Positions 1-14,257 are shown, counted from the whole stretch's first letter. The stretch: DNA of 63,924 nt, filler included, from Reclinomonas americana ATCC 50394 (GCA_048213135.1; 8 parts of 8 records of this genome joined end to end with filler, not necessarily neighbours in it); one strand, 5' to 3'. The notes: a model not told the origin generated them from the sequence alone. Numbers and translations are program-made.

Positions 1-3000
1 GGCCGACGAGATGCTGGACGAAGTTTAGTTCAATACGCGTGAAGACCACCGGAGTAAGGTAGCGGTGGTGCAGCGATGTGAGAAGAGAAGTAGTTGTAGC
101 TCGATTCGTCCCCTCCCCCCCCCCCCTCCCCCCTCCTCTCTCTCTCTCCATTACTCTCCTTGAATACTCTTGCCTGCTTACTGTTTTCATTTGTGTACGC
201 ATGCGGCTACCCACTCTCTTTGTAATTTGTTCACCTATTCATTCTGTTCCTTACTTTGGACTTCTTTGGTGAGGAACGCGACTATTGTTATCGCTCTGTG
301 TCGAGTTCTATTGCCTTCTTGCCGCAACGGCGAAACTGAGTGCCTCTTTTTCCTGTGTTGCCAATCCTGACCGTTGTCTGTACTGTCTCTGATACTCCGG
401 CTCCATTTTTCATTGTTACGTTGCACAGGTGCTGGTGGTGGCCGGGTGGTCCGGCGGCGGCAAAACCGTGCTGTTGCGCCAGCTGACCACTCGCCTGCAT
501 CAGCGTGATGACACGCTGGTGTTGTCGGCTCGACTGCCCAGCATTCCTCCGGCGGAGGTGCTGCGCAGGCAAGGAGCTCTACTGCCTCACTTGCTGCGGG
601 AGGCCAATGAAGCGGTGGTTGATGAACAACTGCGAGTGACAGAGGATGAGGTGCGTGTGGTCAGACGTCACGTTCTTGTCTTTGTCAATGTATTGCGCCT
701 TGCTTTCTTTCTGTCCGTCTCTCCGTGTCAAAGGGATGTACTTGTCTCGTGTTCTGCTCTCCCTGCTCTTGTTGTTTGGCGTCAGTTGTTCGCCTCACTG
801 TCGTTGTGTACCGCGCGTAGTTCTGCTGCATCGACACAGTTGTGCTGGTTCTCGACGGATACGATGAGTGTGGTGAGCCGCCGGGCAACTTGTATGTCAA
901 CCACGACTTGGACGTTGCGTGATCTGTTAAGTGCAACTCGAAAACAAGCCTTGCTCACTGTTCTGCAGGGCTGGCCCAACGTTCTGCTGGTGGTGTCCGT
1001 GCGCCGCGAGTTCATCAACCGCCTCGGCAACTTCTGGGCGGAGGAGCACTTTATGCCAGCCGACCCACATCTGTCGCTCACGGTAGCGTACGATCAGCCG
1101 GAGCGCACGCTTGCACGATGCATGCTGCGGCTGTTCTCAAAAGATGATGTCGATCTCTTCTTGCAAAAGTTGAGAGACGTGTGCTGATTCTCCTGCCGCT
1201 TACTCGGGAACTGACAACCTTCGTGTCAGATTTGTGGAATCACGCGTAAACCATCCGCGCTCGTGGTACCAGCACAAGCAACAGATCGAGCGGACTCCTG
1301 GGCTGGATGGGTTGGCGTCGTCGGTGAGTTCGCCGACCAGAGACGGAAGTCTCGTGGCGCGGCAAAGAGACGGCGCGATTGTGTGTGCGTGTGTTGCCTG
1401 CCATCACAGTGGTATTGTACATCTCACTGCTATGTCTTCTTCATGTATGCAGCCCCTGATGCTGAACATGATCGTGCTGGTGACGGAGGATTTAGAGCAC
1501 CTCGGACTCACGCGAGTGACTCGTGCACGGCTGTACGAGGCCTTTGCCAGGCACAAACTGCGGTGGGAGTTTGAGCACCACCATGTTAACATTCGACAGG
1601 TGTGTGCTTGATGTGTTGCATGTATGCGCATTGGTGCGCCGCTCACGCAGTAGATGATCTCGCGCGTAGCATTATGGCGACGAGGAGTCGGAAGAGCTTT
1701 TCTGCCTGCGGGTGTGGGACTTTTGTTCGGACCTCGCTGGTGAGATGATGCAGCATTCGCTGACGTCTGTGCGGCAGGGCGAGGTGAGTGTGTCACTGTG
1801 AGAGACGCCTGTCTGTTCCGGTCGTCAGTGTATGTCTCATTCTCATTCGTGCGTTTGTTGTTGTACCAATGCAGCGCGCTGTTGCAGAGCAACAATTGTG
1901 GGCCAAGTGGTTCGATCGTGATGATTCGTCGCAGGATTCACTTATCCGCGCAGTTGCGTTGATGTTGTTCTTGGTATACACAACTTTGCTGTCTCTGTCT
2001 CATTTGTGAGAATCGGTGCAGGCATTGCTAAAGTGGAGTCGACTGGGGGTGACGCAGCAGCGTGTGGAATTCATACACAAGTCCGTGCTAGAGTACTTTG
2101 CCGCACAATCGTGGCTGGCAGATGTGCAATTGTTGGCCAATGAGGAGGTTGAGTTGGAGGTGAGTGATCCTGTTCGATTGTAGTTTTTCGTGAGTGTACT
2201 TACTCGCTTGCCCGACTGGGTGCATGCTGAAACGCACTTGTATTATCGCAGGATCGAGTTGACAGGCTGTGCTACAGCTTCAGCGGTCAGCGGGCGCTGC
2301 TCACCTCCGATGAAGTGAGTGTGACGATGTCTCTACGTGCCTGTGCACGCTCTTGCAACATGCTCATTTCCCTCTTGTGTACTGTAGAGTCTGAATTCTA
2401 TTCTGTCTTTCATTGCCGAGCAAGTGAGGGCTGACCTGTCTCTCCATGACGCGTTGTGGAATGCCATTTTGCTCTCCCGCGATGAGGAGAGAGTTGCGGC
2501 TGTGGCATCGAGTGCGGCCAGTGCACTGTGCCTTGCCGAGGTGTCGTTCAGTGGGCGCGATTTGTCGGGAGTGCGAGTGACGGGTGCGGATTTGAGGGAT
2601 GCGGTGATGCACCGGACGGTGTGGAGGGGTGCGGATCTGCGAGGGGTGAATGTGTGCATGGCGTATGCGAGAGAGGCGGATTTCAGGGGGGCGGATGTGA
2701 CGGACGTGAGGTGGCCGAGGAAGGCGATGGTGGGGCACACCCAAGGTGTGCGATCTGTTGCTGTCACTCCCGATGGTCGGCATATTGTGAGTGGAAGCGA
2801 TGACAGGACGGTGCGTGTGTGGTCTGTGGCGAGTGCAGAAGAAGTGCGACAGTTGGAGGGCCACGCTGGTGGGGTGCAGTCTGTCGTCGTCACTGCCGAC
2901 GGTCAACAGATTGTGAGTGGGAGTCGGGACAAGACAGTGCGAGTGTGGTCACTGGCGACTGGAGAAGAAATGCGACGATTAGAAGGACATGCTGGTGGGG

Positions 3001-12051: not shown

Positions 12052-14257
12052 TCATTCAATGATCAATGTAAACTGCCCGCACGCCTCGCGCAGTGCACGC
12101 ATGGCATCGAACGCCTCCTGCGCCGTCGGCCGGTCGCGTCGCATGCTCATGCACCGCATGCCGAGCTCGAACATGGGCTCAGCAATGCGCGGCGTCCATT
12201 CCACGCCACCATCCACCAGCTCCATGGGGCGGAGGGAGGCTGGCGAGCGGTCCCATGCATACAGCCACTCGCGGACGATGGCCGTTGGCTTCCCGGTAAC
12301 CAATTGTATGAGAACTACGCCTGTGGCAAATACATCCGCCTCCGATTGTTTGCTCCTCGAGTGCATGTGGAGTGGGTCCATGTAGTCCAGCGTACCGGCG
12401 GCGGCGGTGGTCTGTCGGCGGAGAAGAGGGAGCTGAGGGGGAGTGTGGAGATAGAGATGGAGGAGCGAGAGTAGATGAACCTTGCCGTCGACACAGGATT
12501 GCGCGATGCCAAAGTCGCCGAGACACGGCTCCAGGCGGTGGTCAAGCAGTACGTAGGATGGCTTTATGTCGCGGTGCACCACCTCGTTCTGCGACAGAGC
12601 GAAGAGGAGGGGGAGATCGCATAGTATGAGAGACTGGCAAATGAGAAACGAAACCCCCGTATTCTAGAGGCAGCTTGCAGTTGCATGTTTATTCTTCATG
12701 CCCTTGCTCCCCCTGCAGCCGGTCTCGCATGGTCATCAGCTGCGCGGCGAGGTCTGTCACCTGGTCCCGTGTATCAGAGAGCAGAGAAGCGGTCCGGTCC
12801 CGCTCGGCCCGCAGTTCGGCGGCCAGTTGCTGTGGACCGTCGTTCCGCCGCCACCAGAGCGGCAGTGTGCTCAACTACAGCGACATCCTGTTGTGTGGCG
12901 AGCTGGTCGCGCTCTGCTCGCAGCCGCGTGATGAGTACCTCCTGCCATTCGACGGTGGCGCGCTCTGCCTGCAGTTGAGCGTCGAGTGCAGTGGACTTGG
13001 CCGACTCTTTGTGCAGTCGTGACTCGAGTTCAGCGACGCGTGCTTGGTCAGCAGCCGGTGGTGGTGGTGGCGGTAGTACTAAATGAGAGAAAGGGACGCA
13101 GTCAATATGCTGATAAGTAGTGCATCTCTACGATGATGGCAAACCTTGTGCAGGGTTGTCGCTGCTCCCACTCGGCGAAGGCACTGTGGATGAGGCCCCG
13201 TGATCATGAGTGCGCTGGCTTGCTGTTGGCGGAGTCAATTTAGAAACACATTTACAAGAATCGAGGGAAATTAAAATTCACACACCTCGCACTGTGTCGC
13301 CGCTCGCAGTCCGCTGCTCGTCTGGCGCGGGCGTGACAGAGCTCACGGCATTGGTACGTACTCCCGGCGGATACACTCCCAACACAACCACCTCCGGCGC
13401 CGGTGACCAGCCAGGTGCACGGTACGCAATCGCCGCTGCATCCTCCACCAGAAAGGCTCGCAGCACGACATCGACGAGGATGTAGTCGCGATCGTCGTCG
13501 TCTTCGTCACATAGGTCGCTGATGGCAGACACTGCCGACCGTGCAGCTGAGAGATCGAGTGCAGCAAGGCCGCGTGGCGTCGACCAGATCAGTACAGTGC
13601 TGTCATCACCACCACTCACGATGTGCTGGCCATCGGGTGTCACTGCCACTGTCCACACCCTACTCGCATGGCCTTCCAGTCGGCGCACCTCCTCACCACT
13701 TGCCACTGACCACACCCGTACAGTCTCGTCCCAACCGCTACTCATAATGTGCTGACCATCGGGAGTGAGAGCGACAGATGTCACCCCAGGGTGTTCCTCC
13801 AATCGTCGCACTTCTTCTCCACTCGCCAGTGACCACATTCGCACCATCTTGTCACCACTCCCACTCACGATGTGCTGACCGTCGGGAGTGACAGCAACAG
13901 ACAACACCGCAGATGTGTGTCCTTAAGTCGCACTTCCTCGCCACTCGCCAGCGACCACACTCTAACTGTTTTGTCCCGACCGCCACTCCCACTCGCAATG
14001 TCGGAGTGACGGCGACAGAATACACCTCTCCAGTGTGTCCCTCCAACTGACGCACTTCCTCTCCACTTGCCAGAGACCACACACGCACTGTCATGTCCGG
14101 ATAGTGACTCCCACTCACAACAACTGACCATCGGCAGTGACAGCGACAGACCACACCAGGCCAGTGTGTCCCTTCAGAACCTGCGTCAGCATACATTGTG
14201 AGGTGTACAGGTAGCAACAACAGACATGAACTCACACAAGAGCACCTTTGTTGCCAT
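12052..14257 (-). pseudogene. Decayed WD40 + coiled-coil + Pelle/IRAK-like kinase gene, copy 2
   Basis: ATG at 14257 gives MATK|intron|VLKGHTGLVWSVAVT. About 5 WD40 repeats follow, with frameshifts or deletions in the first ones. Then a Pro-rich linker and a coiled coil (~13050-12690, with a frameshift and TAA). The sequence then jumps directly to EVVHRDIKPSYVLLD...GDFGIA|TTAAAGTLDYMDP...DRPTAQE...GQFTLIIE*. Kinase subdomains I-VIa are absent. Confidence 0.8.

What the first reader, a model, noticed from the sequence alone, without database searches (positions are those of the whole stretch)
1..14257. Duplicated tail-to-tail pair: NLR-like NACHT-WD40 sensor + WD40-coiled-coil-Pelle/IRAK kinase (candidate protist immune or allorecognition module)
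Seen: the same two-gene cassette occurs twice (1-5849 and ~6735-14257), with stop codons ~440 and ~390 bp apart. The STAND gene has no recognisable N-terminal effector domain, and the neighbouring kinase has no TM segment. Known: NACHT-WD40 proteins with highly conserved repeats (Podospora HET-E/HET-D) are NLR-like non-self sensors, and plant NLRs act with RLK/Pelle cytoplasmic (pseudo)kinases (ZAR1-RKS1; Prf-Pto, which are genomically linked). Inference: this is a linked sensor/kinase unit undergoing birth and death in a microbial eukaryote, with the kinase as effector, guardee or decoy. I do not know of this pairing being described in protists. Caveat: both kinase copies here look decayed.
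Basis: partly seen in the sequence, partly recalled or inferred. Interest (0 to 1): 0.85.

Follow-up and report, generated by a model that had tools for sequence, protein, structure and literature searches.

The report
Duplicated NLR-like gene beside broken kinases
An intron-rich eukaryote carries two tandem copies of an intact NLR-like sensor gene, each backed onto the truncated remains of a plant-receptor-like kinase gene; the layout is real, but it comes from a single copying event and nothing shows that sensor and kinase work together.

Summary
Window 1-5.8 kb and 6.9-14.3 kb are two copies of one segment.

Each copy has a plus-strand gene with 10 GT-AG introns. It encodes a P-loop STAND NTPase, then pentapeptide repeats, then 9 or 14 WD40 repeats. 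The reading frame is intact from the P-loop to the stop, with dN/dS 0.18 between copies.

Tail-to-tail with each lies a minus-strand remnant: frameshifted WD40 units followed by an RLK/Pelle/IRAK-like kinase.
- Neither remnant has the glycine-loop/VAIK exon.
- Copy 1 also has HRD changed to HHD and two frameshifts.
- Copy 2 keeps only a coiled-coil-like stretch plus the C-lobe.

An intact-looking paralogue (ankyrin, coiled coil, kinase) at 59.3-62.7 kb has no STAND neighbour.

The closest STAND relatives found (23-25% identity) are NACHT-pentapeptide-WD40 proteins expanded in Mortierellomycota fungi. Only 2 of 77 related loci have a kinase nearby, and none is tail-to-tail.

Verdict: this is a new member of a known kind, an NLR-like gene in birth-and-death evolution. 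The sensor-kinase module idea rests on one duplication event and is unsupported, though it could not be tested in the organism's own genome.

The parts
63..4037 (+). STAND gene copy 1 (5' end outside the window or diverged). Exons: 63-89, 429-650, 821-913, 969-1168, 1230-1323, 1453-1599, 1670-1783, 1875-1973, 2022-2159, 2252-2314, 2388-4037. P-loop NTPase, pentapeptide segment, 9 WD40 units, short tail.
   Evidence: The spliced frame is open from 63 to the stop and all 10 introns are GT..AG. An in-frame stop lies just upstream of 63. WD40 hits.
6946..11665 (+). STAND gene copy 2, 1197 codons modelled. Exons: 6946-7095, 7422-7643, 7814-7906, 7979-8178, 8240-8333, 8463-8609, 8680-8793, 8885-8983, 9032-9169, 9262-9324, 9392-11665. 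A further 5' exon starting at an ATG near 6736 is possible but unproven.
   Evidence: Open spliced frame with 10 GT..AG introns of 48-326 nt. Motifs read: Walker A GWSGGGKT (exon 2) and Walker B VLVLDGYDE (exon 3). The N-part is homologous over about 500 aa to NACHT-annotated proteins.
9536..9649 (+). Pentapeptide-repeat segment of copy 2, between the NTPase region and the WD40 array. The homologous stretch in copy 1 is at about 2530-2645.
   Evidence: PF00805 at 2.1e-8, 34 bits against a cut-off of 20.2, on residues 49-86 of the exon-11 translation.
2712..3950 (+). WD40 array of copy 1: 9 units of 42 aa, one of them 43 aa.
9716..11488 (+). WD40 array of copy 2: 14 units of 42 aa.
4478..5352 (-). 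Kinase remnant, copy 1. It keeps the beta4-beta5 exon (5352-5254), the alphaE exon (5204-5076), the catalytic-loop exon and the C-lobe. HRD is changed to HHD and the catalytic-loop lysine to isoleucine. There is no glycine-loop/VAIK exon.
   Evidence: Relative to copy 2 there is a 1-nt insertion near 4978 and a 5-nt tandem duplication near 4640, both in exons.
5435..5780 (-). Frameshifted WD40 remnant upstream of kinase copy 1, about 3 units spread over three frames.
12052..12663 (-). Kinase remnant, copy 2. One open frame runs from the catalytic loop (HRD and DFG present) to the stop, with one in-frame intron-like insert. There is no N-lobe and no alphaE exon.
   Evidence: Pkinase profile positions 114-258 only, 54.6 bits..
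12692..13127 (-). Coiled-coil-like, proline-rich linker ORFs upstream of kinase copy 2. The coiled coil was judged by eye, not computed.
   Evidence: Translations. Only a weak Cep57_CLD_2 hit (E 0.0089). No counterpart in copy 1.
13518..14183 (-). WD40 remnant upstream of kinase copy 2: about 5 units with at least two frameshifts inside units, followed by about 100 aa of in-frame linker.
   Evidence: It is 72-76% nt identical to the plus-strand WD40 units.
59287..62718 (-). Third kinase gene, an intact-looking paralogue and not part of the duplication. It has ankyrin repeats, a coiled-coil-like stretch, and a full RLK/Pelle-like kinase (GEGGQG glycine loop, AAIK, HRD, DFG).
   Evidence: Ank Pfam hits. 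Exons read. The N-lobe exon hits only RLK/Pelle/IRAK chains in the PDB, 7 of 7. Pkinase on the catalytic-loop exon at 3.8e-10. 47% aa identity to copy 2 over 76 aa.

Best explanation
This is a tandem segmental duplication in an intron-rich eukaryote.

The functional cargo is an NLR-like STAND gene: a NACHT-type P-loop NTPase, then pentapeptide repeats, then a WD40 array. Both copies are still constrained.
- Their 5' halves, introns included, are nearly identical, which I read as gene conversion.
- Their WD40 arrays have drifted apart in repeat number (9 versus 14) and at a few hypervariable positions.

By analogy with other STAND/NLR proteins, the WD40 propellers would hold the NTPase off until a ligand binds. 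Nucleotide exchange and oligomerisation would follow. This step is inferred, not shown.

The ancestral segment also carried, tail-to-tail, a gene for WD40 repeats, a coiled coil and an RLK/Pelle-like kinase. That gene was copied along with the STAND gene. It stayed under constraint for much of the time since (dN/dS 0.26) and has now been disabled independently in each copy.
- In copy 1 the coiled coil and the glycine-loop exon are absent, and there are two frameshifts and HRD changed to HHD.
- In copy 2 the whole N-lobe and the alphaE exon are absent.

The repeated pairing is therefore adjacency inherited through one duplication. It is not evidence that sensor and kinase act together.
For: - Duplication blocks and their uneven identity. 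Exons match at 1460/1563 positions and introns at 1043/1103, and introns 4-7 are 98-100% identical.
- Both STAND frames are open across 10 GT-AG introns.
- STAND NG86 over 507 codons gives dS 0.181, dN 0.033, ratio 0.18. The kinase C-lobe over 155 codons gives dS 0.344, dN 0.090, ratio 0.26.
- WD40: 23 units, mean aa identity 69%, with entropy peaks at unit positions 8, 10, 26, 28 and 7.
- No N-lobe was found in either kinase locus by four searches. Pfam on 54 minus-strand ORFs of at least 25 aa gave no Pkinase hit at E<=1. tblastn with 9 kinase domains matched only from the catalytic loop onward. The in-window paralogue's exons matched only beta4-beta5 and alphaE in copy 1, and the catalytic loop and C-lobe in both.
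- The copy 1 lesions are a 1-nt insertion outside any base run and a 5-nt tandem duplication, so they look like mutations rather than homopolymer sequencing errors.
- The window holds only two STAND copies, and the third kinase is unpaired.
- Relatives: 2 of 77 loci (722,650 bp) have a kinase in the flanks, and none is convergent.
- A second, unrelated segmental duplication of the same 82% identity lies at 43.8-48.1 kb and 53.8-57.1 kb, so the region is duplication-prone.
Against: - Kinase dN/dS of 0.26 means the kinase was kept under selection in at least one copy, and probably both, long after the duplication. A coupled pair would also predict this.
- The kinase gene's WD40 units belong to the same repeat family as the neighbouring STAND gene (72-76% nt identity). 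This hints at exchange between the two genes.
- The STAND gene has no effector domain of its own in the modelled 5' end, so it needs some partner.
- The linkage test in relatives used proteins only 23-25% identical from another lineage, so it is weak.
- The scaffold is a draft, so some apparent lesions could be assembly errors.
- No expression data could be obtained.
Confidence: 0.6

Rival explanations
1. One reading: a functional sensor-kinase module. The STAND protein and the neighbouring WD40-coiled-coil-kinase act together, with the kinase as effector, guardee or decoy. The truncated, catalytically dead kinases are either still used as decoys or are recently lost partners.
For: - The adjacency is kept in both copies at kinase dS 0.34 with dN/dS 0.26.
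- The two genes share one WD40 repeat family.
- The STAND gene has no effector domain.
- Protein kinases are reported as guarded targets and integrated domains of NLRs, including C-terminal PKinase in nine Sordariales NLRs (PMC12258605, passages read). PKinase is listed among the domain annotations of fungal NLRs (PMC4986451, passage read).
- One metagenome protein (P0042) carries Pkinase, NACHT and WD40 families together.
Against: - There is only one independent occurrence.
- Both kinases lack the ATP-binding N-lobe exon, and a C-lobe alone is not expected to fold as a kinase or pseudokinase.
- Copy 1 has two exonic frameshifts.
- The intact-looking paralogue kinase is unpaired.
- 2 of 77 relative loci have a kinase nearby, and none is tail-to-tail.
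Confidence: 0.25
2. Draft-assembly artefact. The kinase genes are really intact WD40-coiled-coil-kinase genes. The frameshifts and missing exons come from collapsed or mis-joined repeats and sequencing errors.
For: - The scaffold has seven contig linkers.
- WD40 arrays are hard to assemble.
- Kinase dN/dS of 0.26 fits living genes.
Against: - Both copies lie in one gap-free stretch of 25.5 kb.
- The two copies lack different exons, each with unrelated sequence in place.
- The copy 1 frameshifts are a 5-nt tandem duplication and a 1-nt insertion outside a homopolymer.
- The adjacent, equally repetitive STAND arrays are read without a single frameshift.
Confidence: 0.1
3. The minus-strand WD40 units are not part of the kinase gene. 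They are a stray inverted fragment of a STAND WD40 array that landed next to an unrelated kinase pseudogene.
For: - The units share the STAND repeat family.
- They are frameshifted in both copies.
- The intact paralogue uses ankyrin repeats, not WD40.
Against: - In copy 2 the last WD40 unit runs in frame into about 100 aa of linker. A proline-rich, coiled-coil-like stretch follows, mirroring the ankyrin, proline-rich linker, coiled-coil, kinase order of the paralogue.
- The WD40-then-kinase order on one strand is present in both copies.
Confidence: 0.05

Closest known systems
NACHT-pentapeptide-WD40 proteins expanded in Mortierellomycota fungi. These are hypothetical proteins of Mortierella sp. 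NVP85 and GBA43, Benniella sp. and Dissophora globulifera, plus many unnamed metagenome proteins.
   Same: - The order is the same: NTPase, winged-helix-like region, pentapeptide repeats, then a 42-aa WD40 array.
- They are homologous to the spliced window protein over about 500 aa before the WD40 array. phmmer scored up to 108.7 bits, and 123 of 239 stored proteins reached E<=1e-5. blastp gave 23-25% identity.
- The Walker B context (DGYDE) is shared.
- The family forms large paralogue expansions: 77 loci from one metagenome.
   Different: - Identity is only 23-25%.
- The two fungal proteins scanned here (P0130, P0144) have an ARM-like domain (PF23948, ARM_5) of about 360 aa ahead of the NACHT, and PF23948 recurs in the precomputed Pfam lists of many longer relatives. 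No trace of it exists in the window.
- In the window the gene carries 10 introns.
- The window organism is unidentified.
Podospora HET-E / HET-D / NWD family (fungal NACHT-WD40 NLRs)
   Same: - The NOD-plus-WD40 architecture is shared, as are repeat-number differences between paralogues.
- Variation is concentrated at a few positions per 42-aa unit.
- Concerted evolution and gene conversion are described for that family (PMC4986451, passages read).
   Different: - The repeats here are less uniform. Mean aa identity is 69% and maximum nt identity 84%, below the 85% 'high internal conservation' criterion in PMC4986451.
- There is no HET or other effector domain.
- A pentapeptide segment is present.
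- No allorecognition data exist.
RLK/Pelle/IRAK kinases (plant receptor-like and cytoplasmic kinases, animal IRAKs)
   Same: - The best solved-structure matches of the copy-2 C-lobe are SymRK, BAK1, BRI1 and BIK1, at 1e-9 to 1e-8.
- The paralogue's N-lobe exon, with its pre-kinase motif, hits only LysM-RK, CERK1, lectin-RLK, LYK3 and IRAK1 (7 of 7).
- The ESM Atlas look-alikes are streptophyte kinase fragments.
   Different: - The two copies next to the STAND genes lack the glycine loop and VAIK exon, and copy 1 has HHD in place of HRD.
- No ectodomain or TM segment was seen in the translations (not computed); the N-terminal parts are WD40 or ankyrin repeats plus a coiled-coil-like stretch.
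- PknB and RIPK3 score only about 100-fold worse in E-value, so no tree-based family placement was made.
NLR-kinase partnerships in plants (ZAR1 with RKS1/ZED1, Prf with Pto; recalled, not checked here) and PKinase domains integrated in fungal NLRs (PMC12258605)
   Same: An NLR-like gene lies next to a kinase of the RLK/Pelle type, and one copy has a dead catalytic loop, like a pseudokinase.
   Different: - No interaction, co-expression or recurrent linkage is shown.
- Plant pseudokinase partners keep the whole kinase fold, whereas these lack the N-lobe exon.
- In the fungal cases the kinase is fused to the NLR, not encoded by a neighbouring gene.

Membership tests
NACHT NTPase (Pfam PF05729) | A match to the family profile at or above the gathering score | tested here: not met
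   The Walker-A ORF 7362-7931 scores 16.2 bits against 26.7 (E 0.0094). AAA_22, AAA_16 and nSTAND_NTPase5 also fall below their cut-offs. Only single exon-bearing ORFs could be scanned, because the spliced protein could not be handed to the tool, so this is a weak test.
NACHT NTPase (Pfam PF05729) | Homology across the whole NOD module to proteins that do reach the NACHT threshold, with Walker A and Walker B in the NACHT order | tested here: met
   The spliced N-part (548 aa) reaches 70-109 bits against relatives. Those relatives score NACHT at 28.5 and 37.4 bits against 26.7. GWSGGGKT and VLVLDGYDE are present in both copies.
NLR / STAND tripartite architecture | An N-terminal effector or signalling domain | tested here: not met
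   No Pfam family is found in any plus-strand ORF between 5802 and 7361. The ARM_5 domain of relatives is absent, with one tblastn hit at E 0.97. At most about 110 aa precede the P-loop in the copy 2 model. Unresolved 5' exons cannot be excluded, and the copy 1 5' end lies outside the window.
NLR / STAND tripartite architecture | A central NOD followed by a C-terminal array of superstructure-forming repeats | tested here: met
HET-E/NWD-type 'high internal conservation' repeats | Repeat units at least 85% identical over at least 100 aa (criterion quoted in PMC4986451) | tested here: not met
   Mean pairwise aa identity of the 23 units is 69%, mean nt identity 75% and maximum nt identity 84%.
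HET-E/NWD-type 'high internal conservation' repeats | Variation concentrated at a few positions per unit, and repeat-number variation between paralogues | tested here: met
   Entropy peaks lie at unit positions 8, 10, 26, 28 and 7, and the copies have 9 versus 14 units. Positive selection was not formally tested.
Mortierellomycota ARM_5-NACHT-pentapeptide-WD40 family | ARM_5 (PF23948) domain ahead of the NACHT | tested here: not met
Mortierellomycota ARM_5-NACHT-pentapeptide-WD40 family | A NACHT module, pentapeptide repeats and WD40 array in that order, with sequence homology | tested here: met
RLK/Pelle/IRAK protein kinase (the two copies beside the STAND genes) | A complete kinase domain with glycine loop, VAIK lysine, HRD and DFG | tested here: not met
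   No N-lobe exon 1 is found in either copy. Copy 2 has HRD and DFG. Copy 1 has HHD and two frameshifts.
RLK/Pelle/IRAK protein kinase (family assignment) | The closest characterised kinases are RLK/Pelle/IRAK members | tested here: met
   No phylogeny was built, so subfamily placement is open.
Genomically linked NLR-kinase pair (Prf-Pto-like) | Recurrent linkage beyond a single duplication | tested here: not met
   Within the window, 2 of 3 kinase loci are paired, and both belong to one duplication. In relatives, 2 of 77 loci have a kinase nearby and none is tail-to-tail. The organism's own genome was not available.
Genomically linked NLR-kinase pair (Prf-Pto-like) | Physical or genetic interaction of the two products | not tested
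   No complex prediction was run, because the report does not claim binding and the kinases are truncated. An experiment is needed.

The most novel reading that the evidence does not exclude
The STAND gene and the neighbouring kinase gene were a two-output sensor pair drawing on one shared pool of hypervariable WD40 recognition repeats. The same ligand-binding surface would be wired both to an effector-less NACHT oligomeriser and to an IRAK/Pelle-like kinase, with the convergent arrangement favouring repeat exchange between them. Intact pairs of this kind would then exist elsewhere in this genome, as a protist or fungal counterpart of NLR plus RLCK signalling in plants.
Probability: 0.12. Interest if true: 0.7.

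Novelty: new member of a known kind. Interest (0 to 1): 0.3.

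Why it matters
It adds an intron-rich, effector-less member to the NACHT-pentapeptide-WD40 branch of NLR-like proteins, from a lineage whose proteins were not found in the large protein collections searched. It also shows the usual NLR dynamics: tandem duplication, apparent gene conversion, repeat-number change and hypervariable repeat positions.

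The appealing part is an NLR genetically coupled to an IRAK/Pelle-type kinase outside plants and animals. If real, it would bear on how often NLR-kinase signalling has arisen. The present evidence is one inherited adjacency with both kinases broken, so it is a lead for a genome-wide survey rather than a finding.

Tried and rejected
- Sequencing runs: none was listed for 6300-14300 and no RNA holder was listed. Expression and splicing are therefore unverified, and read laying was not used.
- Earlier notes of this scan: nothing by place, sequence or words.
- Word-index search with ORF 7814-8194: no hit.
- Full phmmer of ORF 393-1184 against 1.84 billion representatives: one hit at E 6.4e-4, and it falls in the intron-derived part of the ORF. 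I rejected it. The query was broken by introns, so this does not show that the family is isolated.
- Relatives were instead reached through the WD40/pentapeptide exon, followed by offline comparison with the spliced N-part.
- A prokaryotic origin was considered, because STAND-WD40 and kinase-WD40 proteins are common in cyanobacteria. I rejected it because both STAND copies need 10 conserved GT-AG introns to give an open frame.
- Kinase N-lobe searches were negative apart from the beta4-beta5 exon in copy 1.
- Searches for upstream STAND exons found only the Walker-A exon (E 0.003-0.08) using relatives' first 200 aa. The ARM_5 region gave nothing.
- Literature search for NACHT + pentapeptide + WD40: 6 papers were listed, and judging from titles and abstract openings none is about this family or pairing. 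No search was made for a protist NLR-kinase pairing specifically, so I make no claim that it is not in print.
The WD40 map was made from file-derived sequence instead.
- No complex prediction and no structure prediction were run, since neither would change the verdict.

Full report
**What the window is.** The sequence is eukaryotic. ORFs are short and broken in all frames. Both STAND copies become open reading frames only when ten canonical GT..AG introns of 48-339 nt are removed. The 14 N runs come in seven pairs, each 44 N + TTAATTAATTAA + 44 N. These are contig linkers of a draft scaffold, and the first is at 25,581, so the region under study is one gap-free stretch. No genome is held for the window, no sequencing run was listed, and the scan has no earlier notes. 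The organism is unidentified.

**The duplication.** blastn of 1-6400 against 6401-16000 gives four co-linear blocks:
- 1-3862 to 7014-10863 (86.9%)
- 2754-4015 to 10388-11646 (74.7%, WD40 array plus 3' tail)
- 4468-5044 to 12043-12612 (82.1%)
- 5439-5783 to 13804-14185 (63.7%)

Identity is very uneven. Exons 2-8 and introns 2 and 4-7 of the STAND gene are 96-100% identical, apart from exon 3 at 91%, while both edges and the WD40 part fall to about 70-85%. Summed over the aligned STAND region, exons match at 1460/1563 positions and introns at 1043/1103. Introns as similar as exons, inside a segment whose other parts are about 82% identical, points to gene conversion between the 5' halves after an older duplication. 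That is an inference. A second, unrelated duplication of the same 82% identity lies at 43.8-48.1 kb and 53.8-57.1 kb.

**The STAND gene.** The copy 2 model has 11 exons (6946-11665) and 1197 codons. Copy 1 has the same ten introns at homologous places and is open from position 63 to its stop at 4037. Its first 120 bases are diverged and contain an in-frame stop, so its 5' end is either different or outside the window.

The protein has Walker A GWSGGGKT and Walker B VLVLDGYDE. A pentapeptide-repeat segment follows the NTPase region (PF00805, 34 bits against 20.2). Then come 14 (copy 2) or 9 (copy 1) WD40 units of 42 residues and a tail of about 60 residues.

Pfam on single exon-bearing ORFs gives only sub-threshold P-loop hits: AAA_22 at 26.2 against 27, nSTAND_NTPase5 at 22.1-22.8 against 34, and NACHT at 16.2 against 26.7. 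The spliced protein could not be given to the family tools. I therefore compared it inside the Python box with proteins fetched through the unspliced last exon.

The N-terminal 548 residues match seven of those 121 proteins at 69-76 bits, with 23-25% identity over 475-571 residues. After a further search they match 123 of 239 stored proteins at E<=1e-5, the best at 108.7 bits. These relatives carry NACHT, pentapeptide and WD40 families.

In one search, 1546 proteins reached E<=1e-10 among 8000 scored candidates, and 120 were listed. Every listed row that names an organism is from Mortierellomycota fungi: Mortierella sp. NVP85 and GBA43, Benniella sp. and Dissophora globulifera. The two that I scanned score NACHT at 28.5 and 37.4 bits against 26.7 and have an ARM-like domain (PF23948) ahead of it. 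That domain is absent from the window, and no plus-strand ORF between 5802 and 7361 matches any Pfam family.

**Selection and repeats.**
- Over 507 aligned codons from the P-loop region to the start of the WD40 array, the copies differ by 59 synonymous and 37 non-synonymous changes. This gives dS 0.181, dN 0.033 and dN/dS 0.18, so both are constrained.
- The 23 WD40 units average 69% aa and 75% nt identity. They are no more alike within a gene (74.5% nt) than between genes (75.3% nt).
- Variability peaks at unit positions 8, 10, 26, 28 and 7.
- This resembles the fungal NWD/HET-E pattern, but it falls short of the 85% 'high internal conservation' criterion quoted in PMC4986451 (passages read).

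**The kinases.** On the minus strand each copy has WD40 units followed by kinase sequence.

In copy 2 one open frame (12663-12055) covers Pkinase profile positions 114-258, with HRD and DFG. Upstream lie proline-rich, coiled-coil-like ORFs (judged by eye) and about five WD40 units, at least two of them broken by frameshifts inside the unit.

In copy 1 the catalytic loop reads HHD with isoleucine in place of the lysine. Relative to copy 2 there is a 1-nt insertion near 4978 and a 5-nt tandem duplication near 4640, both in exons.

Four searches failed to find a glycine-loop/VAIK exon in either locus:
- Pfam on 54 minus-strand ORFs of at least 25 aa at E<=1.
- tblastn with nine kinase domains, which match only from the catalytic loop onward.
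- The exons of the in-window paralogue.
- Its two N-lobe exons separately.

The last search did find the beta4-beta5 exon in copy 1 (5352-5254, 53% identity, E 7.6e-11). One search found the alphaE exon in copy 1 only (5204-5076). The two copies have therefore lost different parts, which means the ancestral gene had them.

The retained C-lobe exons give dS 0.344, dN 0.090 and dN/dS 0.26 over 155 codons. The kinase was thus under selection for much of the time since the duplication, and its disabling is comparatively recent. Gene conversion from living paralogues could mimic this signal.

**Kinase family.** The copy 2 C-lobe matches SymRK, BAK1, BRI1 and BIK1 best (1.3e-9 to 1e-8), ahead of PknB, RIPK3 and IRAK1 (about 1e-7). 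ESM Atlas look-alikes are streptophyte kinase fragments.

A third kinase gene at 59.3-62.7 kb (minus strand) has ankyrin repeats, a coiled-coil-like stretch and a complete-looking kinase. Its 62-residue N-lobe exon hits seven PDB sequences, all RLK/Pelle/IRAK: LysM-RK at 1.9e-6, three CERK1 entries, a lectin RLK, LYK3 and IRAK1. It is 47% identical to copy 2 over the catalytic-loop exon. No tree was built.

**Is the pairing meaningful?** The window holds two STAND copies and no others, three kinase loci, and WD40 at only the four places described. Two of the three kinases are paired, but through one duplication. The third, the only intact-looking one, is unpaired.

For the nearest STAND relatives, a metagenome scan returned 77 loci (722,650 bp), all with one contig-name prefix. 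This is a large paralogue expansion in one sample. tblastn with kinase queries found a kinase in 2 of the 77. One is on the same strand 2.2 kb downstream and one is on the opposite strand 4 kb upstream, so none is tail-to-tail. This test is weak, because the relatives are distant and from another lineage, but it gives no support.

On the other side:
- The kinase gene's WD40 units are 72-76% nt identical to the STAND units, against 75-78% for STAND units between the two copies, so the two genes share one repeat family.
- The kinase was retained under constraint after the duplication.
- Kinases fused to or guarded by NLRs are documented (PMC12258605, passages read; PMC4986451, passage read).

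**Verdict.** The best reading (0.6) is an NLR-like gene in ordinary birth-and-death evolution that carried a neighbouring kinase gene along when it duplicated, with both kinase copies now truncated. A functional sensor-kinase module (0.25) is not excluded but rests on one event. An assembly artefact (0.1) is unlikely given the nature of the lesions. The novelty rating is a new member of a known kind, with modest interest (0.3).

Noticed in passing
window 59287-62718 (-): An intact-looking gene with ankyrin repeats, a proline-rich linker, a coiled-coil-like stretch and an RLK/Pelle-like kinase. It is a paralogue of the two broken kinases (47% aa identity over the catalytic-loop exon). Its pre-kinase motif and N-lobe hit only plant LysM, CERK1 and lectin receptor kinases and IRAK1 in the PDB.
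   Followed up: partly
window 43799-48087 and 53815-57063: A second segmental duplication, about 82% identical over about 3.7 kb in two blocks, with further internal repeats at 52.2-56.2 kb. The ORFs tested there had no Pfam match.
   Followed up: no
window 25581-25680, 27245-27344, 35310-35409, 43697-43796, 48475-48574, 57064-57163, 58196-58295: Seven artificial contig linkers (44 N, TTAATTAATTAA, 44 N), several flanked by (GA)n or (GAA)n microsatellites. The scaffold is a draft joined with all-frame stop linkers.
   Followed up: yes
window 36162-38448 (+) and 29782-30993 (+): ORFs with weak REJ (E 1.1e-4) and GPS-motif (E 2.5e-6) matches, suggesting a polycystin or adhesion-receptor-like gene. 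A separate ORF has NHL-repeat matches.
   Followed up: no
window 34579-34910 and 34977-35308: A 332-bp direct repeat at 97.6% identity, ending at a contig linker. It may be an assembly overlap.
   Followed up: no
loci L001-L077: All 77 related loci returned by the metagenome scan carry one contig-name prefix. At 48-100% identity to each other's product, they amount to a very large paralogue expansion of NACHT-pentapeptide-WD40 genes in one sampled organism, probably a Mortierellomycota-like fungus.
   Followed up: partly
protein P0042: A metagenome protein whose precomputed Pfam list holds Pkinase, NACHT and WD40 families together, so a kinase-NACHT-WD40 fusion may exist in nature.
   Followed up: no
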